A DNA stretch of 64,000 nt from an uncultured Anaerolineales bacterium (GTDB lineage: Bacteria > Chloroflexota > Anaerolineae > B4-G1), in assembly GCA_964653285.1 (NCBI GenBank), contig CAZZEX010000012.1, forward strand, positions 5,692 to 69,691. Direction: 5' to 3'. The notes beneath the pieces are model-generated. The model had not been told where the DNA came from and ran no database searches. It saw only the letters and a list, made by a program, of their open reading frames with translations. This document shows positions 6,525-61,395 of this stretch, one piece after another. The position numbers were made by a program, and so were the translations under genes. Each line of letters begins with the position of its first letter. Within the stretch, counting starts at the first letter, position 1.

Positions 6525-7637
6525 GTGGCCAAGCAAAAGATTCTGGTGGTGGACGACGATCAGGGAGGGTTGCGTTTAGTGAAACTGAGCTTACGTCGGG
6601 CAGGGTATCAGGTCGTTACAGCGGTAACGGGCGAGGAAGGCGTGCAGAGAGTTCGCACGGAGAAGCCTGACCTGGTGCTGATGGATGTGATGATGCCGGG
6701 TATGGGCGGTTTTGAGGCCACTAAGCACATTCGTCGGCTGCCTGAGGGCCGTCGCATGCCCATCATCTTCCTCTCCGCCCTGGACCGAACGGAGGCGAAG
6801 GTAAAAGGCCTGCGTATAGGGGGGAACGACTACATCGCCAAGCCAGTGAAGATGGGCGAGTTGCTGGCTCGTGTCGAGGCCCACCTGCGGCTGGAAGCCC
6901 CCGCCCCGGGCCAGTTGATCACTATGTTCGGCAGCAAAGCCGGCGTGGGTACCACCACGCTGATGGTCAACCTGGCTCTGGCCCTGGGCAATGTTTCGCG
7001 GAAGAGCGTTCTGCTGGTGGACTGGCAGCGCCCACTCGGGGATGTCGCGCTCTTTCTGGGCCTGCCCAAGAAGCGCGTATTGGAATCCCTTCTTCCCCAC
7101 GCCAATGACCTGGACGAACAGGGGTTTAACACCGCGCTGAAGGAGTACCTGCCAGGCGTGTGGATTCTTCCTGGGGCAACAGACCCGGCCTCTGCCGATC
7201 AAATGAACCGGGAGGCCTTAAGCAAAGTATTGGAAATGGCCCTGATCAAGGCGGATTACGTCCTCGTGGACGGCGGTTCCTTCTTCTCCTGGGAAGCCCC
7301 GCCTCTGGTCGCCAAGGGGAAAGGGATCAACCTGAGTGTGTTGATGCCCGAACTCACGTCCATCGAGCGAGCCGCTGATGCCGTGGGGGCCGCCAACGTA
7401 ACGAATGATAATTTCTGGCTCCTCTTGAACCGACACGGCATGCCTGGGGGCATCCCGCGTAAGCAGATTGAGTCGCGCTTAAGGATCACTCTCAAGGGAT
7501 GCGTCCCGGACGCGGGCGCTCAGGTAACCCGCGCCTTGAACGAAGGACGTCCCTTGTACATAGCCGATCCGGGTTCGGGCTTCTCCCGCGCCATAGATGA
7601 TATTGCCACGCGCATACACGAAGCCCTGGCTCCGTGA
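6525..7637 (+). CDS. response-regulator receiver fused to a TadZ/CpaE-like ParA/MinD-family ATPase
   Basis: GTG start. The REC domain has all canonical residues (VVDDD, LMDVMMPGMGG, FLSA, YIAKP). The C-terminal ParA-like domain has the deviant Walker A GSKAGVGTTT, which lacks the GK[ST] lysine as in TadZ/CpaE. Confidence 0.8.
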   Translation: MAKQKILVVDDDQGGLRLVKLSLRRAGYQVVTAVTGEEGVQRVRTEKPDLVLMDVMMPGMGGFEATKHIRRLPEGRRMPIIFLSALDRTEAKVKGLRIGGNDYIAKPVKMGELLARVEAHLRLEAPAPGQLITMFGSKAGVGTTTLMVNLALALGNVSRKSVLLVDWQRPLGDVALFLGLPKKRVLESLLPHANDLDEQGFNTALKEYLPGVWILPGATDPASADQMNREALSKVLEMALIKADYVLVDGGSFFSWEAPPLVAKGKGINLSVLMPELTSIERAADAVGAANVTNDNFWLLLNRHGMPGGIPRKQIESRLRITLKGCVPDAGAQVTRALNEGRPLYIADPGSGFSRAIDDIATRIHEALAP

Positions 7638-7872: not shown

Positions 7873-8700
7873 ATGACAGAAGTACCCGCCCTCCCACAGC
7901 CTGATCCAAGGGCCAGATTGCTCGTCGTGGACGACGAAGCCAATCTGCGTGCTGGGCTGCGGAATCTCCTCAGCCTGATGGGGTATCACGTCGAAGAAGC
8001 CGCTTCCGGTCACAGGGCGCTGAAGTTGCTGGAGAGCGCGCCCTACGACCTGATGGTGCTGGACATACGCATGCCGGGGATGGATGGGACCGAGGTGATG
8101 CATCGCGCTCGACAGATGCACCCCGACCTGTCTATCATCGTGCTGACAGCCCATGCCTCACTGGAGAGCGCCATCGCTGCCGTAAAATCAGGTGCGGCGG
8201 ACTACATGCTCAAGCCATTCAACGTAGAGGACCTCGCCGCCGCCATCTCCCAGACCCTGCAAAAGCGCGCTGAGCAGTTGCGCCGCCAGCAGTTGCTGAA
8301 TCTGATAGGCCATGCACTGGACACGCTGGACCAGGCGGAAAGGCCAGCAGCACCTCCACCCTCCCCCCCGACGCCCCCAGAGCGTTTCCTGCACACTGGT
8401 CCTCTAACGCTGGATCGCCAAAAGCGGCTGGCCGTGATGCAGGGTGATCCGCCTCGCACGGTTGAACTGACGGAGGGCGAAACGGCCATCCTGGCTGTTC
8501 TGATGGAGCACCCCAATCAGGTACTCTCCTGCAGCCAGTTGGTTCATGCTGCGATGGGCTACGACCTGGACGAACAAGAAACCCAAAATCAAGTACGTCT
8601 CTATGTTTTCCGTCTGCGCCGCAAGATCGAAACCGACCCCGGCAAACCCCATCTGATTCGCACGGTGCGCGGACGTGGTTACTTCTTAACCCCCGCTTGA
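7873..8700 (+). CDS. OmpR/PhoB-family response regulator (REC + long P-rich linker + winged-helix DNA-binding domain)
   Basis: Canonical REC residues (LVVDDE, VLDIRMPGMDG, VLTA, YMLKPF). The C-terminus LTEGETAILAVLMEHPNQVLSCSQLV...VRLYVFRLRRKIETDPGKPHLIRTVRGRGY is the Trans_reg_C pattern. Confidence 0.85.
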   Translation: MTEVPALPQPDPRARLLVVDDEANLRAGLRNLLSLMGYHVEEAASGHRALKLLESAPYDLMVLDIRMPGMDGTEVMHRARQMHPDLSIIVLTAHASLESAIAAVKSGAADYMLKPFNVEDLAAAISQTLQKRAEQLRRQQLLNLIGHALDTLDQAERPAAPPPSPPTPPERFLHTGPLTLDRQKRLAVMQGDPPRTVELTEGETAILAVLMEHPNQVLSCSQLVHAAMGYDLDEQETQNQVRLYVFRLRRKIETDPGKPHLIRTVRGRGYFLTPA

Positions 8701-8808: not shown

Positions 8809-8997
8809 CGCCTATGAAAGTGTGACATGCTTCGTGAGTGTATCAATATTGCTCTGCATCAATGGTATATTCGGCAGATTCATCGGTGGGGGAAAGGAGA
8901 TGAAAAACAGAGACAAGAAAGACAAGAAACAAAGGAAAGAAACAGTGTATGTTCACCTGTCAATCGAATCTATAGTCAAATCCAAAGGAGACAAGAA

Positions 8998-9570
8998 ATG
9001 ACCAGCAAACTGAATAGGTTACTAAGAGATGAAAGTGGTATCACCGCTTTGGAGACGGCGATCATCTTGATTGCCTTCGTCGTGGTCGCAGCCGTCTTCG
9101 CCTTCACCATTCTCTCGGCCGGCACGTTCACGACCGAGCGAAGCAAGGAGGCGGTGTACGCCGGCCTTGAGGAGGTCAGGGGATCGCTGGAACTCAGGGG
9201 AAGCATCATCGCTAACGGCATTACCAGCACGAACTCCATCACCAACGTGGTCTTCACCGTCGCCAACGTTGCTGGTGGCCAGGCCGTCGACATGTCTACC
9301 ACGAGTAGGGTGGTGGTCGTCGAGTACCGCGACAGCAGCCAGCGCAAGGAGATCACCGACTGGTCAGTGAGTTGGCTGGGGTATAACGATGCAGACACCC
9401 TTCTCGAAGAGAGGGAACTGGCGGAGATCACCGTCCCCTTGAACAGCCTCAGCCCCACCCTGGGAGCCAACACGATTTTCGTCGTCGAGGTGAAACCTCC
9501 GCGGGGTGCCGTCCTCAATCTCCAGAGGACTACGCCAGCCGTTATTGACCTAGTGATGGATCTCAACTAG
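8998..9570 (+). CDS. arlB: archaellin-like filament protein 1 (class III signal peptide)
   Basis: I chose ATG 8998 (SD-like aaaggag upstream) over the 57-codon upstream ORF extension. [14 protein letters not shown] / [46 protein letters not shown] matches the archaeal flagellin N-terminal-like domain. About 190 aa, with a beta-rich C-terminal part. Confidence 0.78.
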
Positions 9571-9585
9571 AATGGGGGTAAGAAA

Positions 9586-10173
9586 ATGAATAAGAAAATA
9601 AAGATGAACAGACTGCTAAGGGATGAAAGTGGTATCACCGCGCTGGAGACAGCGATTATCTTGATTGCCTTCGTCGTGGTCGCAGCCGTCTTCGCCTTCA
9701 CCATTCTCTCGGCCGGCACGTTCACGACCGAGCGGAGCAAGGAGGCGGTGTACTCCGGCCTGGAGGAGGTCAGGGGATCGCTGGAACTCAAGGGAAGCGT
9801 CATTGCCAGGGGAGGATACATCAGCCCCACTGACGTTATCTCAGACGTGATCTTCACCGTCGCCAACGTTGCTGGCGGTCAGGCCGTCGACATGTCTACC
9901 ACGAGTAGGGTGGTGGTCATCGAGTACCGCGACAGCAGCCAGCGCAAAGAGATCACCAATTGGTCAGTGAATTGGCTGGGGTATAACGATGGGGATACCC
10001 TTCTTGAAGAGAGGGAACTGGTGGAGATAACTGTTCCCCTCACCAATACCCTTTCTCCTTACTTGGGAGCCAACACGATCTTTGTCGTCGAGGTGAAACC
10101 TCAGCGGGGTGCGGTCCTCAATCTCCAGAGGACTACGCCAGCCGTCATTGACCCAGTGATGGATCTCAACTAA
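9586..10173 (+). CDS. arlB: archaellin-like filament protein 2 (tandem paralogue)
   Basis: The N-terminal domain is the same as in 8998-9570, and a 77-nt stretch is identical (9064-9140 = 9658-9734). It diverges mainly in one internal patch. An alternative start is ATG 9604. Confidence 0.78.
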
Positions 10174-10218
10174 GGAAGGCTGGCGGATCGCCTTCGAGTT
10201 CGCGGGTCTCGACTGAGT

Positions 10219-10260
10219 GGTTCGGCTGGGTCATAGGGCCCAGTCGAACCGCTTATCTTA
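10219..10260 (+). terminator. possible attenuator/terminator hairpin after the archaellin genes
   Basis: ggttcggctggg (10219-10230) pairs with cccagtcgaacc (10239-10250) with one mismatch, followed by gcttatctta. The T-tract is weak. Confidence 0.35.
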
Positions 10261-10299
10261 AGCAGAGACCACCACCATAGCCAAAACGAGGAGGTTCTC

Positions 10300-10866
10300 G
10301 TGGAACTGGAACACAGAGTGGAGGAACTCGAACGTGAATTGGAAATCCTGAAGGAAACGATGCGAGAAACGCTGCTGGCTATTCAGAAGAGCCTGCCGGA
10401 GAAACCAGCCAGCCCTTCGCGATGGCAGAAGAAGGCCTGGATGTTGGCGCTGCTCAACACCCTCTTGGCCATCACCTTGTTCACCAACATCCGCTTCTAT
10501 ACATCGGACACCCCCCCCTTCGGGATCGGTTCCCTTCTGAGCCCCTGGCTACAGGCGTTTTGGGTGGCCTTGGCGTTCCTGTGGCTGCTCCTCCAGATGT
10601 ACCCCCTGGCGCTGCTCCTGGATCAGGAAGACGGGCGGGCGCGCAAGGTGACCTGGCGTAATTCGGTCGCGCTCTTCAGGTCCAACCCGGGGTTGACCCT
10701 CGCGCTGACGTCGTTGGTATTGATCTTGGCCACCATCAGCGCGCTGTTCCCATCGCTGTGGTTCGTGGTTATGGTGGCGCTGTTCGCCGGCGTGTGCGCC
10801 AACGCGGCGGGGCAACTGGTGCAGTCGTGTCGGCAGCGGGCACAGATAAGAGGGAAAGGAAAGTAG
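10300..10866 (+). CDS. membrane protein: N-terminal coiled coil plus four TM helices (archaellum accessory candidate)
   Basis: GTG start 8 nt after GGAGG. The N-terminus ELEHRVEELERELEILKETMRETLLAIQKSL is paralogous to the N-terminus of 11099-11359. Four hydrophobic helices follow. Confidence 0.6.
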   Translation: MELEHRVEELERELEILKETMRETLLAIQKSLPEKPASPSRWQKKAWMLALLNTLLAITLFTNIRFYTSDTPPFGIGSLLSPWLQAFWVALAFLWLLLQMYPLALLLDQEDGRARKVTWRNSVALFRSNPGLTLALTSLVLILATISALFPSLWFVVMVALFAGVCANAAGQLVQSCRQRAQIRGKGK

Positions 10867-11017
10867 AGAGGGGAAGGGAGGGAATGCACTCGAGGGCCTG
10901 TGATACCAGAGAGTGAAACTCTACTGTAACGAAATCGTAACCGAGGCCGGGTGAGGAGTGTAGTAAACTGTGTCATGGCAAGCATAAGGAGGGATCCTAT
11001 CTTTTCAATAAACCGGG

Positions 11018-11072
11018 GTAGGGGCAGGTCTTGTACCTGCCCAAGAGGGCGACCACGAGGGTTCGCCCCTAC
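11018..11072 (+). other. GC-rich double-hairpin element in the intergenic region
   Basis: gggcaggt/acctgccc form an 8-bp stem with a 5-nt loop at 11022-11042. gggcgacc/ggttcgccc form an 8-bp stem with one bulge at 11047-11068. The pair is flanked by gtagggg...cccctac. Confidence 0.35.
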
Positions 11073-11098
11073 ATATTGAGATGATACGAGGGGTCGTT

Positions 11099-11359
11099 AT
11101 GACAGTGGAACAGAAGGTCAAGATGCTCGAGTACGAAATGAAAATCCTGAAAAATGAAATACAGCGAACGCTCCTGGATATTCAGGAGCAACTTCTACTC
11201 CATTATTACCCTTCTCTCAGAACAGATGAGTCCTCGCCTCCGGAGAGCATCCTGCGTTCTATCGAAACCATCCAAAAGAAAAAGGCGGAGCGAGAGGAAG
11301 AAGAAGAGCAATCGCGTTACCTATCTGAGGAGAAGACAGACCAGACCTCCATAGTGTAG
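11099..11359 (+). CDS. small soluble coiled-coil protein (possible FlaC/ArlC-like module)
   Basis: ATG 11099 follows gaggggt (an alternative ATG is at 11081). VKMLEYEMKILKNEIQRTLLDIQEQL shares 13 of 26 residues with the N-terminus of 10300-10866. The C-terminal tail is acidic and lysine-rich. Confidence 0.55.
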   Translation: MTVEQKVKMLEYEMKILKNEIQRTLLDIQEQLLLHYYPSLRTDESSPPESILRSIETIQKKKAEREEEEEQSRYLSEEKTDQTSIV

Positions 11360-11436
11360 TTGTCGCAGCAAGTGAGCAATAGCGTGGGGAGAGGAGGCCC
11401 TCTCGCTCATAGAGAAGACAAACGAGGAGGCCAGCC

Positions 11437-11904
11437 TTGGATAAAACAATTGTGACGGCCATCATGATCATAGCGGGTGTGGTGTCCGCGGTATTTGTCT
11501 TTAACGCCCTCTACCCCGCGACCATCCAAGGCGGGGAGGCTATGATCAACATGGAGAGGAGGATAGGCGAGCGCCTCAAAAGTAAGATCGAGATCATTCA
11601 CGCCACCGGAAGCGGCAGCAATGCACTGGTATGGGTCAAGAATGTCGGATCCTTGTCCATCAAAGCAGTCGAGAGGTGCGACGTTTTCTTTGGGCCAGAG
11701 AGCGATTTCTCCCGCATCCCCCATAAAGACGAGGCCGGGGGGACCCCTTATTGGGAGTGGGAGGTGGAAAACGACACCGAGTGGAGACCCACGGCGACTT
11801 TGCAGATTACCATCACCTGTGGTGGTCCCGTCTTATCGGGGAGATACTTCGTGAAAGTGGTGACCCCCAACGGCCTCTCCGACGAGTACTACTTCAGCGA
11901 GTGA
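11437..11904 (+). CDS. ArlF/ArlG-family (FlaF/FlaG-like) archaellum stator-type protein
   Basis: TTG start 8 nt after GGAGG. N-terminal helix TIVTAIMIIAGVVSAVFVFNALYP, then IEIIHATGSGSNALVWVKNVGSLSI...CDVFFG, the beta-sandwich pattern typical of FlaF/FlaG. I cannot tell F from G by eye. Confidence 0.68.
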   Translation: MDKTIVTAIMIIAGVVSAVFVFNALYPATIQGGEAMINMERRIGERLKSKIEIIHATGSGSNALVWVKNVGSLSIKAVERCDVFFGPESDFSRIPHKDEAGGTPYWEWEVENDTEWRPTATLQITITCGGPVLSGRYFVKVVTPNGLSDEYYFSE

Positions 11905-11907
11905 CCT

Positions 11908-12408
11908 ATGGAGACGGCGATTACTGCACTCATAGTCATAGCCCTTCTGTTGTTGGTGGTACTTACTATCTCCGAGCGTTACTTCTCTGCACAGGAGGCT
12001 GTTGTGAAATCCTGGCAGGCGATGGAAGAACAAATGGAAGAGAGAGCCGGGACAAATCCCGCGCCCGTTGACGCGGGAACCATAGCCGGAGGCGCAATAG
12101 TGGAGGTAACCCTCAGGAACGAAGGAGACATCAAGTTGGCCGACTTTGACCGCTGGGACGTCATTATTCAGTATTATGATGATTTTGATGGGTACTACAT
12201 AAAATGGCTTCCGTATGCTCAGCCAGGAGACAGGTGGGTAGAGGTATTTCCCCCAGAAGCACAGGTTTTTGATCCGAACATCCTCAATCCAGGTGAGGAG
12301 ATGGTGATTCAGATATCGGTTTCGCCCTCGGTGAAGGAGGGATCCACCAAGTGGGTGACCATCGCCACCCCCAATGGCATCACCGCCTCGACGGTCTTTA
12401 CACGTTAG
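11908..12408 (+). CDS. ArlF/ArlG-family (FlaF/FlaG-like) protein, second member
   Basis: METAITALIVIALLLLVVLTI N-terminal helix, then IVEVTLRNEGDIKLADFDRWDVIIQY. The start lies 3 nt after the previous stop. Confidence 0.68.
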   Translation: METAITALIVIALLLLVVLTISERYFSAQEAVVKSWQAMEEQMEERAGTNPAPVDAGTIAGGAIVEVTLRNEGDIKLADFDRWDVIIQYYDDFDGYYIKWLPYAQPGDRWVEVFPPEAQVFDPNILNPGEEMVIQISVSPSVKEGSTKWVTIATPNGITASTVFTR

Positions 12409-12488: not shown

Positions 12489-12866
12489 ATGAAGATCTGT
12501 CTCATACACGCCAGGCGCGCGGCAGGGGAGGTGTTGGCTAGAGCCCTCTCCTGCAGGTTGAACGCTGAGGTTGATGTGTTTTCTTACTGTGAGAATGCCC
12601 TGGCAACTGCCTTGGACTACGACGTGTTCGTCGTGTACAACAACTTTCAGAAGAAAATGACCGGGTTTCAGGGAGTCAAGAAGATCAGAGCCCGGAAGCC
12701 GCAGGCCTTTATTGTTGGCGTAACTTCCAATCCCAATCTTACCAGGAAGTTCATTTCGGTCGGGGCGGACACCTTCCTTCTGAGGGCTGGAAATGAAATC
12801 GCGGAACTGGTCGGAATTGTTCGTCAGAGGGAAGGCGTCGCCGGGTCTACACTTGAGCGTGGTTGA
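12489..12866 (+). CDS. pseudo-receiver (degenerate CheY-like) domain protein
   Basis: MKICLIHARR...YDVFVVYNNFQKKMTGFQGVKKIR...AFIVGVTSNP...GADTFLLRAG follows the REC secondary-structure pattern. The acidic pocket (HA instead of DD), the phospho-Asp position (Y) and the conserved Lys (R) are all replaced. The start is uncertain (ATG 12447 or 12489). Confidence 0.5.
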   Translation: MKICLIHARRAAGEVLARALSCRLNAEVDVFSYCENALATALDYDVFVVYNNFQKKMTGFQGVKKIRARKPQAFIVGVTSNPNLTRKFISVGADTFLLRAGNEIAELVGIVRQREGVAGSTLERG

Positions 12867-12934
12867 GGGCTGGGTTGGACAAACAGATCGTGCCCGACGA
12901 CTGAAGTGGTCAAACCTGGGCTTGGAAATGGAGG

Positions 12935-12976
12935 GCCCTCTGTGTGTGAATCACTCCCGCAGAGGGCTTTTCTTTC
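12935..12976 (+). terminator. Rho-independent terminator
   Basis: gccctctg (12935-12942) pairs with cagagggc (12960-12967) and is followed by ttttctttc. Confidence 0.55.
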
Positions 12977-13160
12977 GCCCCTGGGCGGTTTAACGCCCGG
13001 CCGGGCGAGCAGAGCAGCACCAACATGCCAGGGGCAAACTGCCCCCTGTTGTGTCAACCCGCAACATTACTGTAACACAAGTGAAACCTCGAGAAAGCCG
13101 ATTCTGAGTTATACTGGCCTGTGAGCCTCCTATTCTGATGGCTGAGGTAGAGGAGTTGCA

Positions 13161-13652
13161 ATGAATGGTTTCGTATGCAAGCCAGTGGACCCCGACGAAC
13201 TCCACAGGGGCACTGAACCGTTCCTGCCTCGGACCCCAGATCTACGAGTACGAGAACGCCAGGTAGCGGAGAAACCACAGTTCACCCTGCCGGTGGATCT
13301 CGACGAGGCTCTGAGAGTGGTAGATGGGGACGATGATCTCTTGCGAGACGTGGTTGAAATGTTCTCAGAGGAATGCCCCAAACAGGTGGAGGCGTTGAGA
13401 GAGGCTCTGGCACGGCAAGACGCACCGGATGTCGAAAGTACGGCGCACAGGCTGAAGGACATCCTGGGCAACGTCGGAGGCCTGGCAGCGCGCGATCTGG
13501 CCCAGCGCATGGAGACTATGGGCGAGGAGGACAAACTCGATGGCGGATCGGCTGTGCTGGAAGAACTGGAAGTTGAGATAAGGCGCGTGGTGACATTCTT
13601 TTCGGAACTGGGATGGGAGCAAGGTGCCCTTGGACGTGAGGGAGGGCAGTGA
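13161..13652 (+). CDS. stand-alone histidine phosphotransfer (HPt) protein
   Basis: ATG follows GAGGAG. LDEALRVVDGDDDLLRDVVEMFSEECPKQVEALREAL...STAHRLKDILGNVGG is the HPt four-helix pattern with the AHxLK phospho-His motif. The N-terminal 45 aa are unrelated (see finding). Confidence 0.8.
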   Translation: MNGFVCKPVDPDELHRGTEPFLPRTPDLRVRERQVAEKPQFTLPVDLDEALRVVDGDDDLLRDVVEMFSEECPKQVEALREALARQDAPDVESTAHRLKDILGNVGGLAARDLAQRMETMGEEDKLDGGSAVLEELEVEIRRVVTFFSELGWEQGALGREGGQ

Positions 13653-14095
13653 TGGGTGCTAAGGCGCGTGTACTTGTCGTTGACAATAACCGTCGCACGG
13701 TGATAATCATCAAACATGCCTTGAAAAAGCAAGGCTGCGAAGTTCTTACCGCCTTCGACGGCAAAGAGGGGTTACGAAAGGCACGAGAGGAGAAGCCCGA
13801 CCTCGTCATCTTGGATGTCATGGTGCCCAGAATGAATGGGTACGAAGTCTGTTACCGCCTGAAAACCGATCCGGATACCGCTCACATAGCGGTGCTCATG
13901 CTCACCGCCGAGGGAGAAATTGATAATGACGCGAGGCATCAATTTACCGACCGTCTCGAAAACCAGTTACAGGGTCTCGAGATTGGGACCGTAGATTTCT
14001 TGACCAAGCCGATTAAAGCGAGAGACCTGCTGAGGCAAGTGAAGACATCGCTTTACCGGTTGTCCCAAAGACCGGTGGTGGAGTTTCGAGATTGA
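13652..14095 (+). CDS. single-domain CheY-like response regulator
   Basis: The ATG shares one nt with the HPt TGA stop. VLVVDNN, DLVILDVMVPRMNG, LMLTA and DFLTKP show that the phospho-Asp, Thr and Lys are all present. Confidence 0.85.
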   Translation: MGAKARVLVVDNNRRTVIIIKHALKKQGCEVLTAFDGKEGLRKAREEKPDLVILDVMVPRMNGYEVCYRLKTDPDTAHIAVLMLTAEGEIDNDARHQFTDRLENQLQGLEIGTVDFLTKPIKARDLLRQVKTSLYRLSQRPVVEFRD

Positions 14096-14108
14096 GGGAG
14101 ATGTCCAG

Positions 14109-15173
14109 ATGGCTAAAAAGATACTACTGATCGAGAACGATCTTCAAATCATGAATCTAATCAGGGAGCCCCTCGAGGATGAGGGCTACGTGGTGGTGAC
14201 GACCAGGGATGGTCCCGAAGGACTGAAACTGGCCAGGAGGGAGCAGCCCAATCTCGTAGTAGTGGACTTCAACCTGCCAAGTATGACGGGGAACATAGTC
14301 GCCCGCCGCCTGCGACATGATCCAGCCACGGATCACCAGGCGATCCTCATGATCTCCGGCGAGGATCAGTTAGAGGAAATAGAGATTGGTCCTAAAACAA
14401 GTGCCGACGACTTCCTCATCATGCCTTTCGATGTCGCGGAATTGTTGACCAAGGTCAGGCCCCTACTTATAGGTGCAGAGGATGAGAAAGGGACAGTGAT
14501 CTCGACGGGGAACAGCGAACTCGACGTCAAGATGGGAGGAGGAATACCCATGGGCTCCTTGACCCTGATCGAGGGCGATTCGGGGGCCGGCAAATCCGTG
14601 CTTTCCCAGCAGATGATGCGTGGGTGCCTGGACAATGGACATAGACTAACCCTCTTTAGTAGCGAGAACACAGTGAAGAGCCTGGTCACACAAATGCAGA
14701 GCCTGAATTTAGGCATCCTGGACTATCTCCTCTTGAGCAGGCTGAGGGTAATTCCTATCGAGACCTCGCGACTGGGCGGGGATGCTCCTTCCATCTTGAT
14801 GGAGGCCATGCAAAAGGAGGAGAAGGGGCACGAGATTACCATTGTGGATTCTCTTACCTCATCCATTCCCGGCTCCTCCGAAAAGGAGGTGCTCATCTTT
14901 TTCGAGGAGTGCAAGAGGCTGTGTGCGAATGGCACAAGTGTCATCATCGTCGTTCACTCTCACGGCCTGACCAGTGAACTCCTCGCCCGCATCCGGTCTC
15001 TTTGTGATGCCCACCTCCAGCTGCGCACTGAGGAGGTGGGACAGAAGATGGTCAAGGCTTTGGAAGTGACGAAGGTAAGGGGAGCAGATCAACACACAGG
15101 CAATATCATCAGCTTCGAGGTGGAGCCAGGATGGGGGATGAGGGTCATACCCATAAGCAAGGTCAGGGGATAG
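14109..15173 (+). CDS. arlH: receiver domain fused to ArlH (FlaH) KaiC/RecA-like ATPase
   Basis: N-terminal 120 aa are REC-like (ILLIEND, NLVVVDFNLPSMTG, LMISG, but DDFLIMPF with Met in place of the conserved Lys). The C-terminal 230 aa read ELDVKMGGGIPMGSLTLIEGDSGAGKSVLSQQM...ITIVDSLT, the FlaH Walker A/B pattern. Confidence 0.82.
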   Translation: MAKKILLIENDLQIMNLIREPLEDEGYVVVTTRDGPEGLKLARREQPNLVVVDFNLPSMTGNIVARRLRHDPATDHQAILMISGEDQLEEIEIGPKTSADDFLIMPFDVAELLTKVRPLLIGAEDEKGTVISTGNSELDVKMGGGIPMGSLTLIEGDSGAGKSVLSQQMMRGCLDNGHRLTLFSSENTVKSLVTQMQSLNLGILDYLLLSRLRVIPIETSRLGGDAPSILMEAMQKEEKGHEITIVDSLTSSIPGSSEKEVLIFFEECKRLCANGTSVIIVVHSHGLTSELLARIRSLCDAHLQLRTEEVGQKMVKALEVTKVRGADQHTGNIISFEVEPGWGMRVIPISKVRG

Positions 15174-15179
15174 AGTTTT

Positions 15180-16865
15180 GTGGCGCAGATGGAGTTGCCT
15201 TTTGCCTATGAGAAGAGCAATAGCGGACGCGCCCGCGACTCTAACCGCCGCCTCCACTCTCTACTCCCCAAGCCTCTACAGAAGGCCTGCGCGGAGAATA
15301 ATTTCCTCGACGATTACCTGCACTGGCTTCCAATTGATGAGATCGGTGTTCCCGACTACTATCCTAGACTCTCGAGGAACCTGAAGGACCTGGCGGTGCG
15401 TAACCTGATCTACCAGATTAAAGATGGTCTCTTCATCCACATTTACCCCGACCCGACGAGCGCAAGAGATATTTACATCCCCATAGAACCTCACATGACG
15501 GTGGATCTGGAGGATATCATGCCGGAGGTAGAGGCCAAACTCCTGGATTGGGCCGAGGAAATCGGCCTGGCGGAGACAGAGGAGGAGAAAAAGGAAGCGC
15601 TTGTGCGCGCGATAGACGAGATCGTCACCACCAACGCCGGAGTTGGGAAGACTCAGGTGACGCCCCGGCAACTGGAGGGGCTCCGGTACGTCATCACACG
15701 AGACAAGGCCGGCCTCAGTGTGCTGCAGCCGCTGCTCCTGGACCCCTACATTGAGGATATAAGTTGCAGCGGGGTGGGGTCTATCTTTATCGAACATAAG
15801 GTCTTCAAAAGCCTCCAGGCCGCCATCGTGTTCCCCACCCACGAGGACCTGGACGACTTCGTGGTCTGGATGGGCGAGTGGATTAAGAGACCCGTCACTA
15901 TACGCAACCCGATTGTGGACGCCACGCTTCCTGATGGGTCTCGTATAAATATCGTCTATGGAACCGACATCTCCAAGCGAGGGAGTAACTTCACAATCCG
16001 CAAGTTCAGCGAAACTCCTATCAGCATAATGGAACTCATCGAATTCGGAACTCTGGACTACATGATGGCTGCATATCTCTCCTTCATCCTTGAGGAGGGT
16101 ATGAATATGTTCGTCGCGGGCGCGACGGCGTCGGGCAAAACGACCACGCTTAATGCCATCACCACCTTCATCCTCCCTGACAAAAAGATCGTGAGCATAG
16201 AGGACACACCGGAACTCCAGGTCCCCCACAAGAACTGGATTCGAGAGGTGACCAGGGGAACAGGGCGAGAGAGCAAAGATAGCGCGGTGGGGATGTTCGA
16301 TCTCCTCAAAGCGGCCCTGAGGCAGCGCCCGGACAGGATCATCATTGGAGAGATCAGAGGAGAAGAAGGGGCTATTGCCTTCCAGGCGATGCAAACGGGG
16401 CACGGGGTGCTGTCCACCTTCCATGCTGCTTCTGTGGAGAAGCTCATCCAGCGCCTTACCGGAGAGCCCATTAACATACCCCGGGCTTACGTGGATAACC
16501 TCGACGTGGTGATTATTCAGGCTGCCGTGAGGGCACCCGGTGGGGGAGGAATGGTGCGGCGGATCCTCAGCATCAATGAGATCGTGGGGTACGATCCAAC
16601 TAGCAAGAGTTTCTCCTTCATCGAGGCCTTCCGCTGGAACCCGACAAGGGACACTTTTGACTTTCCAGGTTACATGAACAGCTATCTTCTGGAGGAAAAG
16701 ATAGCCATGAGGCGAGGCATCCCTCCTCACAAGAGAAGAGCGATCTACACAGAACTTAAGAAGAGAGCGAAGATCTTTGAGAAGCTCCATAGACAGAGAA
16801 AGGTGAGGGATTTCTATGACGTCTTCAAAATCACCGCAGAAGCGCACCGGCAAAATCTTCTCTGA
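15180..16865 (+). CDS. arlI: ArlI (FlaI) archaellum assembly/motor ATPase, type II/IV secretion NTPase superfamily
   Basis: 561 aa. FlaI-type N-terminus (NLIYQIKDGLFIHIYPD...YIPIEP). Walker A VAGATASGKTTTLNAI, plus EDTPEL and IIIGEIRGEE motifs. GTG 15180 start (alternative ATG 15189). Confidence 0.88.
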   Translation: MAQMELPFAYEKSNSGRARDSNRRLHSLLPKPLQKACAENNFLDDYLHWLPIDEIGVPDYYPRLSRNLKDLAVRNLIYQIKDGLFIHIYPDPTSARDIYIPIEPHMTVDLEDIMPEVEAKLLDWAEEIGLAETEEEKKEALVRAIDEIVTTNAGVGKTQVTPRQLEGLRYVITRDKAGLSVLQPLLLDPYIEDISCSGVGSIFIEHKVFKSLQAAIVFPTHEDLDDFVVWMGEWIKRPVTIRNPIVDATLPDGSRINIVYGTDISKRGSNFTIRKFSETPISIMELIEFGTLDYMMAAYLSFILEEGMNMFVAGATASGKTTTLNAITTFILPDKKIVSIEDTPELQVPHKNWIREVTRGTGRESKDSAVGMFDLLKAALRQRPDRIIIGEIRGEEGAIAFQAMQTGHGVLSTFHAASVEKLIQRLTGEPINIPRAYVDNLDVVIIQAAVRAPGGGGMVRRILSINEIVGYDPTSKSFSFIEAFRWNPTRDTFDFPGYMNSYLLEEKIAMRRGIPPHKRRAIYTELKKRAKIFEKLHRQRKVRDFYDVFKITAEAHRQNLL

Positions 16866-18306
16866 CCTCAGCAGAGGGATTTCGGGCTTCGATATCTTCT
16901 ATCAGCTCACGTACATGTCTGCCACGTCGGCGGCAGGGATCTCGAGGGACAGGGTTTTCGCGCTTGCCCGCCAGTTGCCCGCTCCTCCAGCCCAATGCTT
17001 CAGTGCGATCAATGACCTGGTCGCGAATTTGCGTTACAGTTACCCTGATGCCTGTCGCATGGTTGGCGAACGTGTGAAGTCGGATGAGATGAAGACCTTC
17101 CTGCTGCGGCTCTCTGACGCCCTCAGGTCAGGGGAGCCGCTGGCAGCCTTCTTGGCGCGGGAAGCCCGGGTGCAGGGGGAGAACTACTCGAATGAGTATG
17201 AGCGCAATCTGGAGAGTCTGAAGAAATGGAACGATGGCTATACAGCCGTTACCGTCTCGGTGGCGTTGATTGTGATCATTAACATGGTTTCATCTATGAT
17301 CTACGATCTGGGAACCGCCACGATGGTAGGGATGGTGGTAGTAGCTGCCATAATGGGCCTTATTATAGCCTGGATCTTATCCCGATCAGCGCCGCAGGAA
17401 ACCAAGCACGGCCCTCTGGCGGAAGGTGCCAAGGAACAGCACCTCAGCCTCAAACTCTTCCGCATCCTTTTCCCCATGGCAGGGGTCACAAGCCTGGCCC
17501 TCGCGTTGTTAGGAGTGAATTGGGGATGGACCATGATCGTGGCATCTCTCCTTATGGCCCCTATAGGGGTAGCCAGCCTGTTCGCTGACAGGAAAATCAC
17601 CAAGAAGGACGCGGAAATCAGCGCCTTCTTTCGCTCTCTGGGGGGGACGGCCACCTCAAGAGGAACCACGCTGACGGATGCTTTGACCAACATGAAGATA
17701 GATTCCTTTCCCACGCTAGAACCGGACATAAAGAGGCTTAGCCTGAGGCTCAGAGCCATTGGTAATCCTGAACTCTGCTGGCGGATGTTCGGAATTGAAA
17801 CAGGCAGCAAGCTGATAGACCAGACCACGGGCGTTTTCTATGGGGCGATACACCTGGGAGGGGACCCGGAGAGAGCGGGAGTTCTCTCCAGCCTATTCTC
17901 CATGAGGACCGCCATGCTGCGGGCTAAACGGGAAGGTGTTGCCGCCACCTTTACCTGGCTTTTAGTAGTGATGCACACTGTACTTGCAGCACTTATGGTC
18001 TTTCTCTTAGAGATCATTCGCCAATTCACAATCCTGTTAGAGGAGGCTATGGCGCCACTGGGACAAGGTGAGGAGGCAGTGCAATCGCCTGGAATGGACA
18101 TGGCTTTCTTCGGCACCCCCCGGATTCCATTCCTTGAGACGATAATGATAGGGATGATACTTACACTTGCCTTGACCAATGCATTCGCAGCCGTAGCCAG
18201 CGAGGGATCGCACTTACTTAAGATCTTTTTCTATTTGTCCATTTTGCTGCTCCTATCGGGGGTAAGTTTCCTCATCGTCCCCTCAATGGTACATCTGGTA
18301 ATGTGA
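16816..18306 (+). CDS. arlJ: ArlJ (FlaJ) polytopic membrane platform protein
   Basis: FDIFYQLTYMSATSAAGISRDRVF...FLLRLSDALRSGEPLAAFL...KKWNDGYTAV is the FlaJ/T2SSF pattern, duplicated, with multiple TM helices. It overlaps arlI by 50 nt. Confidence 0.82.
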   Translation: MTSSKSPQKRTGKIFSDLSRGISGFDIFYQLTYMSATSAAGISRDRVFALARQLPAPPAQCFSAINDLVANLRYSYPDACRMVGERVKSDEMKTFLLRLSDALRSGEPLAAFLAREARVQGENYSNEYERNLESLKKWNDGYTAVTVSVALIVIINMVSSMIYDLGTATMVGMVVVAAIMGLIIAWILSRSAPQETKHGPLAEGAKEQHLSLKLFRILFPMAGVTSLALALLGVNWGWTMIVASLLMAPIGVASLFADRKITKKDAEISAFFRSLGGTATSRGTTLTDALTNMKIDSFPTLEPDIKRLSLRLRAIGNPELCWRMFGIETGSKLIDQTTGVFYGAIHLGGDPERAGVLSSLFSMRTAMLRAKREGVAATFTWLLVVMHTVLAALMVFLLEIIRQFTILLEEAMAPLGQGEEAVQSPGMDMAFFGTPRIPFLETIMIGMILTLALTNAFAAVASEGSHLLKIFFYLSILLLLSGVSFLIVPSMVHLVM

Positions 18307-23198: not shown

Positions 23199-23272
23199 GG
23201 GCCGTTAGCTCAGCCCGGTAGAGCAGGGGCCTTTTAAGCCTTTGGCCGCAGGTTCGAATCCTGCACGGCCCA
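23199..23272 (+). tRNA. tRNA-Lys (anticodon UUU)
   Basis: 74-nt cloverleaf folded by hand: acceptor GGGCCGT/ACGGCCC, D arm GCTC..GAGC, anticodon stem GGGGC/GCCTT with loop CTTTTAA, T arm GCAGG-TTCGAAT-CCTGC, discriminator A. CCA is not encoded. Confidence 0.9.
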
Positions 23273-23299
23273 CTGGGGGAAGCAGACAAGTAGACAAGC

Positions 23300-60263: not shown

Positions 60264-61395
60264 ACAGCGCCTGGTGGCTATCCAGCATTCGTTCCAGGGA
60301 GAACTCAGCGACCACCTTTTGCCTCCCGGCGACCGCCAATCTATGAGCCCACCGCGGGTACTGTAACAGGGACAGGATGGCACCGGCCATAGGTGCAGGT
60401 GCATTCGCCGGTACGACCAGACCAGACACCTGGTCGTCAATGACGTCCCGGGTACCCACAACATCGGTCACGACCACGGGCAATGCCAGCGCCATCGCCT
60501 CCAGCAAGGCAAAGGACAACCCCTCGTACTGGGAAGCCAGTACAAAGACGTCAAACGCCCGCATAACCTCCCACACATCTTCACGGTGTCCCAGTAGACG
60601 CAGAGGAACGTACTCCACCCTGGCTCGGGCCTCAACTTCGGCCTGCAGCGGCCCCGACCCGGCCCACACAAACAGTGCCCCTGGCGCTTCGTCGGCCACC
60701 TGTCTGGCCGCCTGGACGAACACGAGAGGAGCCTTCTGTGGCACCAGTCGCCCCACGGCTCCCACCACATACCGATCAGGGTGAATGCCCAGACGCGACT
60801 TTGCCTCTGCCCTCGTCAACCCGGCCACTCTGTCAATGTGCGCGACGTCAACGCCATTGGGAATGACGCGGATACGGGGTGAGGCGACAATATGGTGGCG
60901 AATCAACACGTTTCGCTCACCAACCGAGACCGCGATCATGGCTGTGGTCAGATATCCTGCCAGCCGTTCCAGGTTGAGATAGAACTGGCGGCTTATCCCG
61001 GTTTTCTCCAGGAAGTACAGGCCATTCGGGGTATGAATAACCGGAGTACTGCAGCACCGCGCCGCCATTCTGCCCAAGAAGCCCCCTTTGGAACTGTGCG
61101 TATGCACCAGAGCGAAGCGCCCTCCTCGCAACAGCCGACAGAGAGCCACAAGAGCAATGGCATCCCGCAAGCCAATCCGGCGTTGCATAGGCAGCGGGTA
61201 AAATGGTACCCCTTGCCGCTTTAAGTTCTCAACAAAGGCCGTGTCTCCATAGTGCTCACATCGCTGCCAGGGAGCAGCCACAGCAACATCCATCCCTCTG
61301 GTACGCAAGCCCACGGTCAGGGCGGTGACGTAGCATCGCACACCGGCTGTGGTCGCCTCAACCACGTGAAGAATGCGCAGTGGGTCAGCACTCAT
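60229..61395 (-). CDS. GT4 (group 1) glycosyltransferase
   Basis: LRILHVVEATTAGVRCYV N-terminus and VFVLASQYEGLSFALLEAMALALPVVVTDVVGTRDVI E-x7-E region. Confidence 0.85.
   Translation of the reverse strand: MSADPLRILHVVEATTAGVRCYVTALTVGLRTRGMDVAVAAPWQRCEHYGDTAFVENLKRQGVPFYPLPMQRRIGLRDAIALVALCRLLRGGRFALVHTHSSKGGFLGRMAARCCSTPVIHTPNGLYFLEKTGISRQFYLNLERLAGYLTTAMIAVSVGERNVLIRHHIVASPRIRVIPNGVDVAHIDRVAGLTRAEAKSRLGIHPDRYVVGAVGRLVPQKAPLVFVQAARQVADEAPGALFVWAGSGPLQAEVEARARVEYVPLRLLGHREDVWEVMRAFDVFVLASQYEGLSFALLEAMALALPVVVTDVVGTRDVIDDQVSGLVVPANAPAPMAGAILSLLQYPRWAHRLAVAGRQKVVAEFSLERMLDSHQALYEGLHTRQPQG

What the first reader, a model, noticed from the sequence alone, without database searches (positions are those of the whole stretch)
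12489..15173. Phosphorelay parts wired into the motor: pseudo-receiver, HPt, CheY-like protein and a REC-ArlH fusion
Four signalling genes lie between the stator-like genes and arlI. They encode a degenerate receiver that has lost DD, the phospho-Asp and the Lys. Next come a stand-alone HPt protein with an AHRLK site and a canonical CheY-like receiver whose start overlaps the HPt stop by 1 nt. Last is ArlH carrying an N-terminal receiver domain that keeps the phospho-Asp (VVVDFNLP) but has Met instead of the conserved Lys. In Euryarchaeota, CheY reaches the motor through CheF and ArlCDE. I recognise no CheF or clear ArlCDE here. A receiver fused directly to ArlH, the KaiC-like regulator of ArlI, would be a different and shorter route for coupling phosphorylation to archaellum rotation or assembly. 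The window contains no histidine kinase, CheA or MCP.
Basis: partly seen in the sequence, partly recalled or inferred. Interest (0 to 1): 0.8.

Follow-up and report, generated by a model that had tools for sequence, protein, structure and literature searches.

The report
Receiver-tagged ArlH and leftover phosphorelay
In this bacterial (Chloroflexota) copy of the archaeal swimming motor, the motor regulator ArlH carries a built-in two-component receiver domain and sits beside the leftovers of a dedicated kinase relay; this wiring of signals to the motor is not described in the papers I could search, and in this genome the relay is partly eroded.

Summary
All four genes exist as described: a pseudo-receiver (12489-12866), an HPt protein (13161-13652), a CheY-like receiver (13652-14095) and REC-ArlH (14109-15173). 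They lie inside a Chloroflexota archaellum cluster.

REC-ArlH is not a one-off. At least 120 protein clusters that are 66% or more identical share the fusion, as do 21 of 80 GTDB species loci, all Anaerolineae-type. Archaeal, Dehalococcoidales and Litorilinea loci have unfused ArlH.

In 13 of those 21 loci a hybrid kinase (REC-HisKA-HATPase-REC-HPt) plus the CheY-like gene sits directly upstream of REC-ArlH. Eight also carry MCP/CheA/CheB.

The window's "stand-alone HPt" is the last ~160 codons of that kinase.

The CheY-like protein keeps every catalytic residue in 26 of 26 orthologues; the window alone has D13N. The receiver on ArlH lacks the phospho-Asp in 27% of relatives, including 7 of 13 loci with the kinase next door. 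In the window it has lost the Lys.

The likely flow is therefore HPt to CheY-like protein, with the ArlH receiver acting mainly as a motor-side docking or regulatory domain.

I found no description of the fusion in the searched papers. It is a new variant of a known kind, and a candidate answer to how signals reach the archaellum without CheF.

The parts
12489..12866 (+). Pseudo-receiver (125 aa). It has a receiver fold with H7/A8/Y50/T79/R99 at the D12/D13/D57/T87/K109 positions, and belongs to a small conserved family.
   Evidence: Pfam REC at 23.3 bits, below threshold. AF2 pLDDT 89.7 with (beta-alpha)5 topology. Foldseek TM ~0.8 to receiver domains. 47 homologous clusters, all 49% or more identical, with Y50 invariant and N51, N52 and F53 nearly so, and with G101-N102-E103 invariant. 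Found in L001/L004, L003, L007, L011, L022 and L087. dN/dS 0.23 against L087.
12867..13160 (+). Conserved non-coding spacer. It holds a hairpin plus T-run (about 12929-12977, terminator-like) and conserved blocks up to a TATACT box (about 13061-13115).
   Evidence: DNA alignment with L087 and L085 shows long near-identical blocks. One block is also present in L084. The RNA fold has z = -3.67. No Rfam match.
13161..13652 (+). HPt protein (163 aa), the 3' remnant of a hybrid histidine kinase. Residues 1-15 are beta5/alpha5 of the lost receiver. The HPt domain carries its His in AHRLKD.
   Evidence: Pfam Hpt at 49.7 bits. It aligns end to end with residues 510-660 of the 662-aa REC-HisKA-HATPase-REC-HPt protein of L001, at 47% identity. 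The truncation series is shown. NCBIfam matches fall on the C-terminal ends of BarA and ArcB. dN/dS 0.36 against L085.
13652..14095 (+). CheY-like single-domain receiver (147 aa) with a 12-15 residue insertion in the alpha4 region. Catalytic set is D11/N12/D55/T85/K119.
   Evidence: Pfam REC at 82.7 bits. Orthologues 47-57% identical lie directly after the hybrid kinase in related loci. 26 of 26 orthologues have DD-D-T/S-K; only the window has D-N. The start overlaps the HPt stop by 1 nt.
14109..14480 (+). Receiver domain of REC-ArlH (residues 1-124), with E9/N10/D11, D53, S83 and M105.
   Evidence: Pfam REC at 67.8 bits. AF2 pLDDT is about 90 over this domain. Site statistics come from 120 homologues and from the loci.
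14481..15173 (+). ArlH (FlaH, KaiC-like) domain of REC-ArlH. It keeps Walker A K162, catalytic E186 and Walker B D247.
   Evidence: NCBIfam FlaH at 252.5 bits against a cut-off of 194. 4YDS at E = 1.7e-32, with the residues equivalent to SaArlH K33, E57 and D122 aligned (the roles of these residues come from bioRxiv 10.1101/2021.03.19.436134).
15180..16865 (+). ArlI, the motor ATPase.
   Evidence: Pfam T2SSE at 143 bits. Conserved synteny in all related loci.
16816..18306 (+). ArlJ, the membrane platform protein.
   Evidence: Pfam T2SSF at 40.7 bits. Conserved synteny.
11437..12408 (+). Two ArlF/ArlG-type stator genes (11437-11904 and 11908-12408).
   Evidence: Weak matches only: Pfam Arch_flagellin and FlaF_Ig-like and NCBIfam ArlF/ArlG. 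Conserved order in related loci.
11081..11359 (+). Truncated ArlDE-like gene (92 aa). Only the N-terminal coiled coil is present.
   Evidence: It aligns with the first ~60 residues of 180-330-aa proteins in the same position in 27 related loci. That position is labelled ArlDE in L. aerophila. An HMM of their C-terminal domain finds nothing in the window and 62 ORFs in other loci.
7873..8700 (+). OmpR-type response regulator just upstream of arlB. It is a likely transcriptional input (context only).
   Evidence: Pfam REC at 110 bits plus Trans_reg_C at 72 bits. The same gene precedes arlB in L003, L015, L016, L019, L021, L030 and L085.

Best explanation
The four genes are a cut-down version of a signalling module carried by a large clade of Anaerolineae-type Chloroflexota, inserted between the stator genes and arlI.

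The full module consists of:
- a tripartite hybrid kinase (REC-HisKA-HATPase-REC-HPt);
- a translationally coupled single-domain CheY-like receiver;
- often a pseudo-receiver;
- ArlH with an N-terminal receiver-like domain;
- frequently an MCP/CheA/CheB operon upstream.

Shown:
- the domain identities;
- the clade-wide fusion;
- the conserved neighbourhood;
- that the window's HPt ORF is the last ~160 codons of the hybrid kinase;
- that the ArlH domain keeps its ATP-binding and catalytic residues.

Inferred:
- Phosphoryl groups reach HPt, in this genome from a kinase encoded elsewhere, and pass to the CheY-like protein. That protein is the conserved true acceptor.
- The receiver-like domain on ArlH, perhaps together with the pseudo-receiver, is the motor-side partner. 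Through its conserved alpha4-beta5 face it senses the state of the CheY-like protein, or in Asp-bearing members its own phosphorylation.
- This changes ArlH oligomerisation and the ArlH-ArlI interaction. The domain would thereby stand in for the CheF/ArlCDE route of Euryarchaeota.
- In this window the pathway is eroding. The kinase is deleted, the CheY-like protein has D13N, the ArlH receiver has Lys replaced by Met, and the ArlDE C-domain is lost. Signalling is probably weakened, or depends on a remote kinase.
For: Domain calls.

Spread of the fusion:
- All of the best 120 clusters are full-length REC+KaiC proteins at 66% identity or more.
- 52 of the 150 best 50%-identity representatives of the ArlH domain carry an N-terminal REC.
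- Every representative that carries a name is from Chloroflexota.
- The nearest unfused ArlH proteins come from Anaerolineae and Methanosarcina.

Neighbourhoods:
- 13 of 21 fused GTDB loci have the hybrid kinase immediately upstream.
- 18 of 21 have a stand-alone REC immediately upstream.
- 8 of 21 have CheA within 10 kb.

HPt as a kinase remnant. The same 'MNGFV' truncated form occurs in a homologue that is 72% identical (P0381), with the His kept. This points to retention under selection (dN/dS 0.24-0.36).

The CheY-like protein is strictly canonical in 26 of 26 orthologues. The fused receiver lacks the Asp in 32 of 120 homologues, and in 7 of 13 loci that have the kinase next door.

Invariant residues of the fused receiver cluster in alpha4-beta5 (E85, I93, G94, D100, D101, I104, P106, F107). 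D53 is not invariant.

Litorilinea-type loci keep a separate REC directly upstream of an unfused arlH. That REC is nearer to the CheY-like family. A stand-alone receiver next to arlH is thus the conserved theme.

Published work shows that ArlH nucleotide state and phosphorylation control its oligomerisation and its binding to ArlI. It also states that CheF is absent from Chloroflexota and that another coupling component is expected.
Against: - No binding or phosphotransfer data exist. The docking role is inferred only from conservation patterns.
- 73% of fused receivers do keep the Asp and 90% keep the Lys, so direct phosphorylation may matter in many members.
- I could not run a multimer model.
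- The window's own CheY-like protein has D13N, and dN/dS is highest for the CheY-like protein and HPt (0.36). The pathway may already be non-functional here.
- Close relatives differ in which parts they keep: L085 has no CheY-like gene, L087 has no HPt, and L015 has neither. No accessory gene is indispensable.
- The rest of the genome is unseen, so a feeding kinase is only assumed.
Confidence: 0.45

Rival explanations
1. The HPt protein phosphorylates Asp53 of the receiver fused to ArlH, with the CheY-like protein as a second target or a phosphate sink. Phosphorylation acts directly on ArlH and ArlI.
For: The window keeps D53 and a Ser at the T87 position. 88 of 120 homologues keep the Asp and 108 of 120 keep the Lys. 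HPt and kinase genes lie next to REC-ArlH in most fused loci. Basal fused members (L023, L024) and the non-archaellar SAR202/Dehalococcoidia REC-KaiC-like proteins have canonical DD-D-T/x-K sets.
Against: The window's receiver has Met at K109 and Asn at D13. Its 82%-identical orthologue also has Gly at the phospho-site. The Asp is absent in 7 of 13 loci that retain the kinase. The D13 position is never acidic and T87 is Ala in 95% of homologues.
Confidence: 0.25
2. Vestige model. In this genome the relay is dead or dying. HPt, the CheY-like protein and the pseudo-receiver are leftovers. The receiver on ArlH has become a purely structural or scaffolding domain, for example compensating for the missing ArlDE C-domain or ArlX ring, with no signal input.
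For: - The kinase is deleted down to HPt.
- There is no kinase, CheA or MCP in the 64 kb.
- The CheY-like D13N change is unique among 27 orthologues.
- Lys to Met in the ArlH receiver occurs only in the window and its two closest relatives.
- The nearest relative has lost HPt altogether.
- The ArlDE C-domain is lost.
- dN/dS is highest for HPt and the CheY-like protein.
Against: All four ORFs are intact and have Shine-Dalgarno-like sequences. dN/dS of 0.17-0.36 is far below 1. The same truncated HPt form persists at 72% identity with its His intact. The pseudo-receiver family is strongly conserved.
Confidence: 0.2
3. Assembly or expression control. The module does not control rotation or switching. 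It gates archaellum assembly or gene expression, for example during the change from filament to short motile cells, through ArlH's role in early assembly and the OmpR-type regulator upstream of arlB.
For: ArlH phosphorylation is proposed to act in early assembly. Archaellation in L. aerophila is conditional, on motility plates. An OmpR-type regulator is conserved directly upstream of arlB. A conserved terminator- and promoter-like spacer precedes the HPt-cheY-arlHIJ unit.
Against: MCP/CheA/CheB operons directly upstream in 8 of 21 loci point to fast behavioural control rather than developmental control. Directional switching was observed in L. aerophila.
Confidence: 0.1

Closest known systems
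Archaeal ArlH/FlaH (S. acidocaldarius 4YDS, M. jannaschii 4WIA)
   Same: The C-terminal 230 residues form the same RecA/KaiC-like domain. Walker A Lys, catalytic Glu and Walker B Asp are all conserved. The gene sits directly upstream of arlI-arlJ. It passes the NCBIfam FlaH cut-off.
   Different: Archaeal ArlH is a single-domain protein of about 230-245 aa. Here a ~120-aa receiver and a short low-confidence linker are fused to its N-terminus. All archaeal loci sampled (Archaeoglobi, Methanosarcina) are unfused.
Litorilinea aerophila archaellum locus (Sivabalasarma et al. 2025, PMC12488501)
   Same: [quoted passage not shown] A related Litorilinea sp. locus (L028) shows the same order.
   Different: In Litorilinea the receiver ('CheY') is a separate gene and ArlH is unfused. 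The window has a fused receiver plus a CheY-like gene, an HPt remnant and a pseudo-receiver, and it lacks the ArlDE C-domain. The window is not L. aerophila: the best genome match to its REC-ArlH is 69-71% identical.
Euryarchaeal CheY-CheF-ArlCDE coupling
   Same: It serves the same functional need, which is to pass a phosphorylation-dependent signal to the archaellum motor. Related loci carry MCP/CheA/CheB next to the motor genes.
   Different: CheF is reported absent from Chloroflexota. The window also lacks the ArlD/E-like C-terminal domain. The candidate motor-side receptor is a receiver domain on ArlH itself.
Tripartite hybrid kinases with a C-terminal HPt (BarA, ArcB, TorS) and stand-alone HPt proteins
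   Same: The window's HPt matches the REC-end plus HPt region of BarA and ArcB and of the clade's own REC-HisKA-HATPase-REC-HPt kinases. The His-containing helix is conserved.
   Different: Only the last ~160 residues remain. The start codon is the Met of the receiver's GMDG motif. The protein became stand-alone by truncation and does not belong to an ancestral free-HPt family.
Pseudo-receivers that act by binding rather than phosphorylation (FrzS; KaiA and CikA pseudo-receiver domains in the KaiC clock). This comparison rests on my own knowledge.
   Same: They have a receiver fold without a phosphorylatable Asp, and they work in a motility or KaiC-type ATPase context. FrzS appears among the sequence matches of the ArlH receiver.
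   Different: There is no detectable specific homology. The comparison is an analogy for mechanism only.

Membership tests
ArlH/FlaH (archaellum KaiC-like protein) | Sequence membership: reaches the curated family cut-off over the full model length. | tested here: met
   NCBIfam NF004723 FlaH at 252.5 bits (cut-off 194), residues 124-353 against model positions 9-242 of 243. The ArlH equivalog NF052589 scores 204.2, just under its cut-off of 215. 4YDS at E = 4e-32.
ArlH/FlaH (archaellum KaiC-like protein) | Walker A Lys, catalytic Glu and RecA-type Walker B Asp (SaArlH K33, E57, D122). | tested here: met
   K162, E186 and D247 align with these residues. All three are invariant in A2 or A4.
ArlH/FlaH (archaellum KaiC-like protein) | Gene directly next to arlI and arlJ in an archaellum locus. 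| tested here: met
   14109-15173 is followed by ArlI (15180-16865) and ArlJ (16816-18306).
ArlH/FlaH (archaellum KaiC-like protein) | Single-domain protein of about 230-250 aa. | tested here: not met
   354 aa with an N-terminal receiver. This is the point of difference, making it a variant architecture.
ArlH/FlaH (archaellum KaiC-like protein) | ATP-dependent binding to the ArlI hexamer and autophosphorylation. | not testable with these tools
   Needs biochemistry.
Phosphorylatable receiver (REC) domain - the N-domain of ArlH | (beta-alpha)5 receiver fold. | tested here: met
   Pfam at 67.8 bits. The AF2 secondary structure shows five beta-alpha units with pLDDT about 90.
Phosphorylatable receiver (REC) domain - the N-domain of ArlH | Complete catalytic quintet: acidic pair, phospho-Asp, Thr/Ser and Lys. 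| tested here: not met
   E9/N10, D53, S83, M105. The D13 and K109 positions are lost. Across the family the Asp is present in only 73% and the T87 position is Ala in 95%.
Phosphorylatable receiver (REC) domain - the CheY-like protein | Complete catalytic quintet. | tested here: inconclusive
   The window has D11/N12/D55/T85/K119, so only D13 is changed, to Asn. 26 of 26 orthologues have the full set. Whether D13N abolishes phosphorylation here cannot be judged from sequence.
CheY proper (chemotaxis response regulator) | Encoded within, or fed by, a CheA/CheW/MCP chemosensory system. | tested here: not met
   There is no CheA or MCP in the window. In relatives the orthologue follows the hybrid kinase, not CheA, although che operons lie further upstream in 8 of 21 loci.
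Pseudo-receiver | Receiver fold lacking the phospho-acceptor Asp and the acid pocket. | tested here: met
   Fold. H7/A8/Y50/R99 occupy the D12/D13/D57/K109 positions. Y50 is invariant in 29 family members.
HPt domain | Pfam Hpt above the gathering score, with the conserved phospho-His helix. | tested here: met
   49.7 bits against 24.6. The His of AHRLK is conserved in all aligned homologues.
Hybrid (tripartite) histidine kinase | HisKA and HATPase_c catalytic core present. | tested here: not met
   Only the last 15 residues of the receiver plus the HPt remain. No kinase-core HMM hit anywhere in the window.
Euryarchaeal CheF/ArlCDE switch route | ArlD/E-type C-terminal domain present in the locus. 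| tested here: not met
   An HMM of the C-terminal domain of 27 homologues finds nothing in the window (best E = 2.3) and 62 ORFs in other loci. Only the N-terminal coiled coil remains, at 11081-11359.
Euryarchaeal CheF/ArlCDE switch route | CheF adaptor present. | not tested
   I ran no CheF profile over the window. Two papers report its absence from Chloroflexota.

The most novel reading that the evidence does not exclude
In Anaerolineae-type Chloroflexota the horizontally acquired archaellum was re-wired after transfer. A receiver-like domain fused to ArlH, helped by a dedicated pseudo-receiver, forms a new switch input that replaces the archaeal CheF/ArlCDE adaptor. It reads the phosphorylation state of a cluster-encoded CheY-like protein, fed by a dedicated hybrid kinase/HPt relay and often by CheA. 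It converts that state directly into changes in the ArlH-ArlI ATPase complex. This would be the first known case of a two-component signal acting on the regulatory ring of a type-IV-filament-family rotary ATPase.
Probability: 0.35. Interest if true: 0.8.

Novelty: new variant of a known kind. Interest (0 to 1): 0.6.

Why it matters
The two papers on bacterial archaella leave one question explicitly open: how does a sensory signal reach the motor when CheF is absent? One of them even doubts that the locus-encoded 'CheY' of L. aerophila has anything to do with the motor.

The comparative picture here offers concrete, testable candidates:
- a receiver domain physically fused to ArlH in a large clade;
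- a conserved CheY-like gene that always sits beside arlH;
- a dedicated hybrid kinase/HPt;
- a conserved pseudo-receiver.

If confirmed, this would show how a machine transferred between domains of life was plugged into bacterial two-component signalling. It would also give a handle on the poorly understood regulatory role of ArlH.

For this window alone the message is more modest. It holds a partly eroded version of the module and documents stepwise reduction of a hybrid kinase to a free HPt protein.

Tried and rejected
- **Window = L. aerophila?** Rejected. The best genome match to REC-ArlH is 69-71% identical. Litorilinea-type loci have an unfused ArlH.
- **Remnants of the lost kinase in the spacer (12867-13160).** I translated all six frames and found nothing recognisable. 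The spacer turned out to be a conserved non-coding element.
- **Does loss of the phospho-Asp in the ArlH receiver track loss of the neighbouring kinase?** It does not. 7 of 13 kinase-bearing loci lack the Asp. This finding turned me away from the direct-phosphorylation model.
- **Is the Litorilinea stand-alone REC the unfused counterpart of the ArlH receiver?** BLAST places it nearer the CheY-like family, and no fused REC is among its top 15 hits.
- **Pfam support for ArlC/D/E in X92, X188 and their longer homologues.** Only 1 of 28 gave a weak Arch_fla_DE hit, at 20.2 bits against a gathering score of 21. The ArlDE label rests on position and on the published structure-based naming.
- **Rfam on the spacer and on the whole window.** Only tRNA-Lys was found.
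- **Taxonomy of ten more distant REC-ArlH-like representatives.** None carried a name. 'All Chloroflexota' therefore holds only for the named ones and for the GTDB loci.
- **SAR202/Dehalococcoidia REC-KaiC-like proteins (L036, L055, L056).** They are not next to arlI/J within 10 kb, so I did not count them as archaellar REC-ArlH.
- **A loose pattern search for the spacer motifs.** It was too permissive for the two short motifs. Only the 30-nt motif A result is used.

Full report
**What is in the window.**
Region 6.5-23 kb is a Chloroflexota archaellum cluster of the type described for Litorilinea aerophila (PMC12488501). In order it holds:
- REC-ParA/MinD-like (6525-7637)
- an OmpR-type regulator (7873-8700)
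- two archaellins (8827-10173)
- a coiled-coil membrane protein (10300-10866)
- a 92-aa coiled-coil ORF (11081-11359)
- two ArlF/G-type genes (11437-12408)
- the four genes of the finding

The window is not L. aerophila itself. The best GTDB genome match to its REC-ArlH is 69-71% identical.

**Checking the observation.**
Pfam confirms Hpt (49.7 bits), a receiver in 13652-14095 (82.7 bits), and a receiver plus KaiC-type ATPase in 14109-15173 (67.8 bits each).

The ATPase domain passes the NCBIfam FlaH cut-off (252.5 against 194). It aligns with S. acidocaldarius FlaH 4YDS (E = 1.7e-32). The Walker A Lys, catalytic Glu and Walker B Asp are all conserved (residue roles).

The first gene scores below Pfam's threshold (23.3 bits). 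Its AlphaFold2 model nevertheless has pLDDT 89.7 and five beta-alpha units, and it matches receiver domains at TM ~0.8.

- Pseudo-receiver: H7/A8/Y50/T79/R99 at the CheY D12/D13/D57/T87/K109 positions.
- ArlH receiver: E9/N10/D53/S83/M105.

Two additions are needed. The CheY-like protein has Asn at the D13 position, so it is not fully canonical. The ArlH receiver also lacks an acidic residue at D13.

The 1-nt overlap of the HPt stop and the CheY-like start is real. HMMs built from the kinase cores, CheA cores and MCPs of related loci find nothing in the 64 kb.

**The fusion is a clade-wide feature.**
- A search of 5.8 billion proteins returned 2461 relatives. The best 120 clusters are all full-length REC+KaiC proteins at 66% identity or more.
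- An exhaustive search with the ArlH domain alone against 50%-identity representatives found an N-terminal receiver in 52 of the best 150.
- Where names exist these are from Anaerolineae, Dehalococcoidia, SAR202 or Chloroflexota.
- The closest unfused proteins are from Anaerolineae and Methanosarcina.

In 80 GTDB species loci I annotated neighbourhoods with phmmer and HMMs:
- 21 loci (L004-L024: Anaerolineae, Ardenticatenaceae, Promineifilaceae, Ca. Aquidulcis) have REC-ArlH directly before arlI-arlJ.
- Dehalococcoidales, Caldilineaceae and all Archaeoglobi loci have a plain ~240-aa ArlH.
- Litorilinea-type loci (L025, L028) have a separate 135-143-aa receiver followed by an unfused ArlH. This matches the 'cheY' drawn between arlF and arlH for L. 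aerophila.
- The more distant REC-KaiC-like proteins of SAR202 and Dehalococcoidia (L036, L055, L056) sit beside kinases and not beside arlI/J. I do not count them as archaellar.

**What normally stands upstream.**
In 13 of the 21 fused loci the gene pair directly upstream is:
- a hybrid kinase, REC-HisKA-HATPase-REC-HPt (630-1370 aa), and
- an overlapping ~142-aa receiver that is 47-57% identical to the window's CheY-like protein and shares its alpha4 insertion.

Eight loci also have MCP, CheA-REC and CheB further upstream. The pseudo-receiver recurs in L001/L004, L003, L007, L011, L022 and L087. It forms a small family of 47 clusters. Y50 and G101-N102-E103 are invariant, and N51, N52 and F53 nearly so.

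This neighbourhood is strong contextual evidence that the clade wires a phosphorelay to the arlHIJ motor genes.

**The 'stand-alone HPt' is a kinase stump.**
The 163-aa protein aligns end to end with residues 510-660 of the 662-aa hybrid kinase of L001, at 47% identity. Its first residues, MNGFVCKPVDPDEL, are beta5/alpha5 of the kinase's internal receiver. The start codon is the Met of the GMDG motif. NCBIfam likewise matches the C-terminal ends of BarA and ArcB from residue 1.

Relatives show a reduction series:

| State | Length | Example |
|---|---|---|
| Full hybrid kinase | 662 aa | L001 |
| REC-HPt | 282 / 269 aa | L084, P0383 |
| Last third of REC + HPt | 183 / 169 aa | L085, P0382 |
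| The window's form | 163 aa | also P0381 (72% identical, same MNGFV start) |
| Clean HPt | 135-136 aa | L019, L021, P0384 |
| Internal REC deletion | 190 aa | P0385 |
| No HPt, faint residual match in the spacer | - | L087, the closest relative (82%) |

The HPt part stays well conserved with its His. dN/dS is 0.24-0.36. HPt therefore seems to be retained by selection while the kinase part is dispensable, and it is sometimes lost altogether.

**Which receiver takes the phosphate?**
The CheY-like protein has DD-D-T/S-K in 26 of 26 orthologues. Only the window has D-N.

The receiver fused to ArlH is different. In 120 close homologues:
- position 9 is Glu in 97%;
- position 10 (CheY D13) is never acidic;
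- the phospho-Asp is present in only 73% (Gly 14, Ser 7, Ala 7, Glu 3, Asn 1);
- the T87 position is Ala in 95%;
- the Lys is present in 90%, with Met only in the window and its two closest relatives.

In the ungapped locus alignment 9 of 21 fused GTDB loci lack the Asp. These include 7 of the 13 with the hybrid kinase next door. Loss of the Asp therefore does not follow loss of the kinase.

The invariant residues of this domain cluster in alpha4-beta5: E85, I93, G94, D100, D101, I104, P106 and F107. This is the surface receivers commonly use for partner contacts (my own knowledge).

I therefore favour this model:
1. HPt passes phosphate to the CheY-like protein.
2. The ArlH receiver acts mainly as a motor-side docking or regulatory domain.
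3. Direct phosphorylation is possible in Asp-bearing members, but it is not the common mechanism.

Published biochemistry shows that ArlH's nucleotide and phosphorylation state governs its oligomerisation and its binding to ArlI. That gives an obvious output.

The Litorilinea-type separate receiver is nearer the CheY-like family than the fused receivers. A free receiver beside arlH is thus the older theme, and the fused domain is an addition of the Anaerolineae-type clade.

**State of this particular genome.**
Everything points to reduction:
- the kinase is deleted;
- no kinase, CheA or MCP lies within 64 kb;
- the CheY-like protein has D13N;
- the ArlH receiver has Lys replaced by Met;
- the ArlDE-like gene is cut to its N-terminal coiled coil (92 aa against 180-330 aa elsewhere), and its C-terminal domain is absent from the window.

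Yet all ORFs are intact and have Shine-Dalgarno-like sequences. dN/dS against the 82% relative is 0.17 for the ArlH receiver, 0.23 for the pseudo-receiver and 0.36 for the CheY-like protein, compared with 0.09-0.26 for the other genes of the cluster. These Nei-Gojobori values are rough and average over the whole divergence.

I cannot decide between a weakened but working relay fed from elsewhere and a relay on its way out.

**Literature.**
The Nature Microbiology paper mentions a cheY homologue in the locus, notes that CheF is absent, and suggests that another component must link chemotaxis to the motor. A 2026 preprint disputes the CheY label and does not mention ArlH.

I searched for ArlH or FlaH together with receiver, response regulator or KaiC-like terms, and searched the paper's supplements. 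None of these turned up a description of a receiver-ArlH fusion, the hybrid kinase module or the pseudo-receiver. The library is incomplete, so this is absence of evidence only. Databases already label such proteins 'response regulator' or 'FlaH'.

**Verdict.**
This is a new variant of a known system: an archaellum motor with a receiver-tagged ArlH and a dedicated phosphorelay, seen here in eroded form. Its interest lies in the clade-wide pattern, which supplies testable candidates for the missing chemotaxis-to-archaellum link in bacteria.

Noticed in passing
window 12867-13160 (also L087 3146-3458, L085 9053-9401, L084 about 900-1190): The spacer upstream of HPt is a conserved non-coding element. 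It holds long near-identical blocks, a strong hairpin with a T-run (about 12929-12977, terminator-like), a 30-nt block GCAACATTACTGTAACACAAGTGAAACCTC, and a TATACT box. It appears more conserved than synonymous sites of the flanking genes. The RNA fold has z = -3.67 and there is no Rfam match. It may be a terminator plus promoter or leader of the HPt-cheY-arlHIJ unit, or a structured leader RNA.
   Followed up: partly
L017 and L018 (about 10001-11800): Two GTDB loci carry both a REC-ArlH (whose receiver lacks the Asp and the Lys) and a plain 245-aa ArlH, side by side before arlI. This hints that the fused form may have begun as, or can act as, a regulatory paralogue.
   Followed up: no
window 11081-11359 and 10300-10866: Two ORFs share an ArlC/DE-like N-terminal coiled coil (EQRVK.LE.E.KILKNEIQ.TLLDIQEQ). 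One (188 aa) continues into a multi-pass membrane domain and is conserved in several loci. The other (92 aa) is a truncated form of the 180-330-aa 'ArlDE' proteins of relatives.
   Followed up: partly
window 6525-7637: A receiver fused to a ParA/MinD-type ATPase (370 aa, CpaE/TadZ-like architecture). It is conserved near the archaellum genes in L001/L004 as well. It may position the machinery at the pole, in line with the MinD-like proteins noted for L. aerophila.
   Followed up: no
window 7873-8700: An OmpR-type response regulator directly upstream of arlB. It is conserved in that position in L003, L015, L016, L019, L021, L030 and L085, and is a likely transcriptional regulator of the archaellin genes.
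   Followed up: no
window about 26000-64000, minus strand: A long run of surface-glycan genes: MurJ-type flippase, several glycosyltransferases and methyltransferases, Wzt-type ABC transporter, DUF4012, and a TMEM260-like protein O-mannosyltransferase (58731-60464). It may be linked to the O-glycosylation reported on the L. aerophila archaellin.
   Followed up: no
L036, L055, L056: SAR202 and Dehalococcoidia encode REC-KaiC-like proteins with a fully canonical receiver (DD/ED-D-T-K). They are 33-39% identical to the window protein. They lie beside histidine kinases but not beside arlI/arlJ within 10 kb. This looks like a separate, non-archaellar response-regulator family with an ArlH-like output.
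   Followed up: partly
L014 2442-2705: An 87-aa ORF upstream of REC-ArlH whose C-terminal end matches the end of the CheY-like protein. This is another sign of piecemeal decay of the module in some lineages.
   Followed up: no
window 23199-23273: tRNA-Lys (anticodon TTT) just after the PilO-LysM gene. It is the only RNA gene detected in the window.
   Followed up: yes
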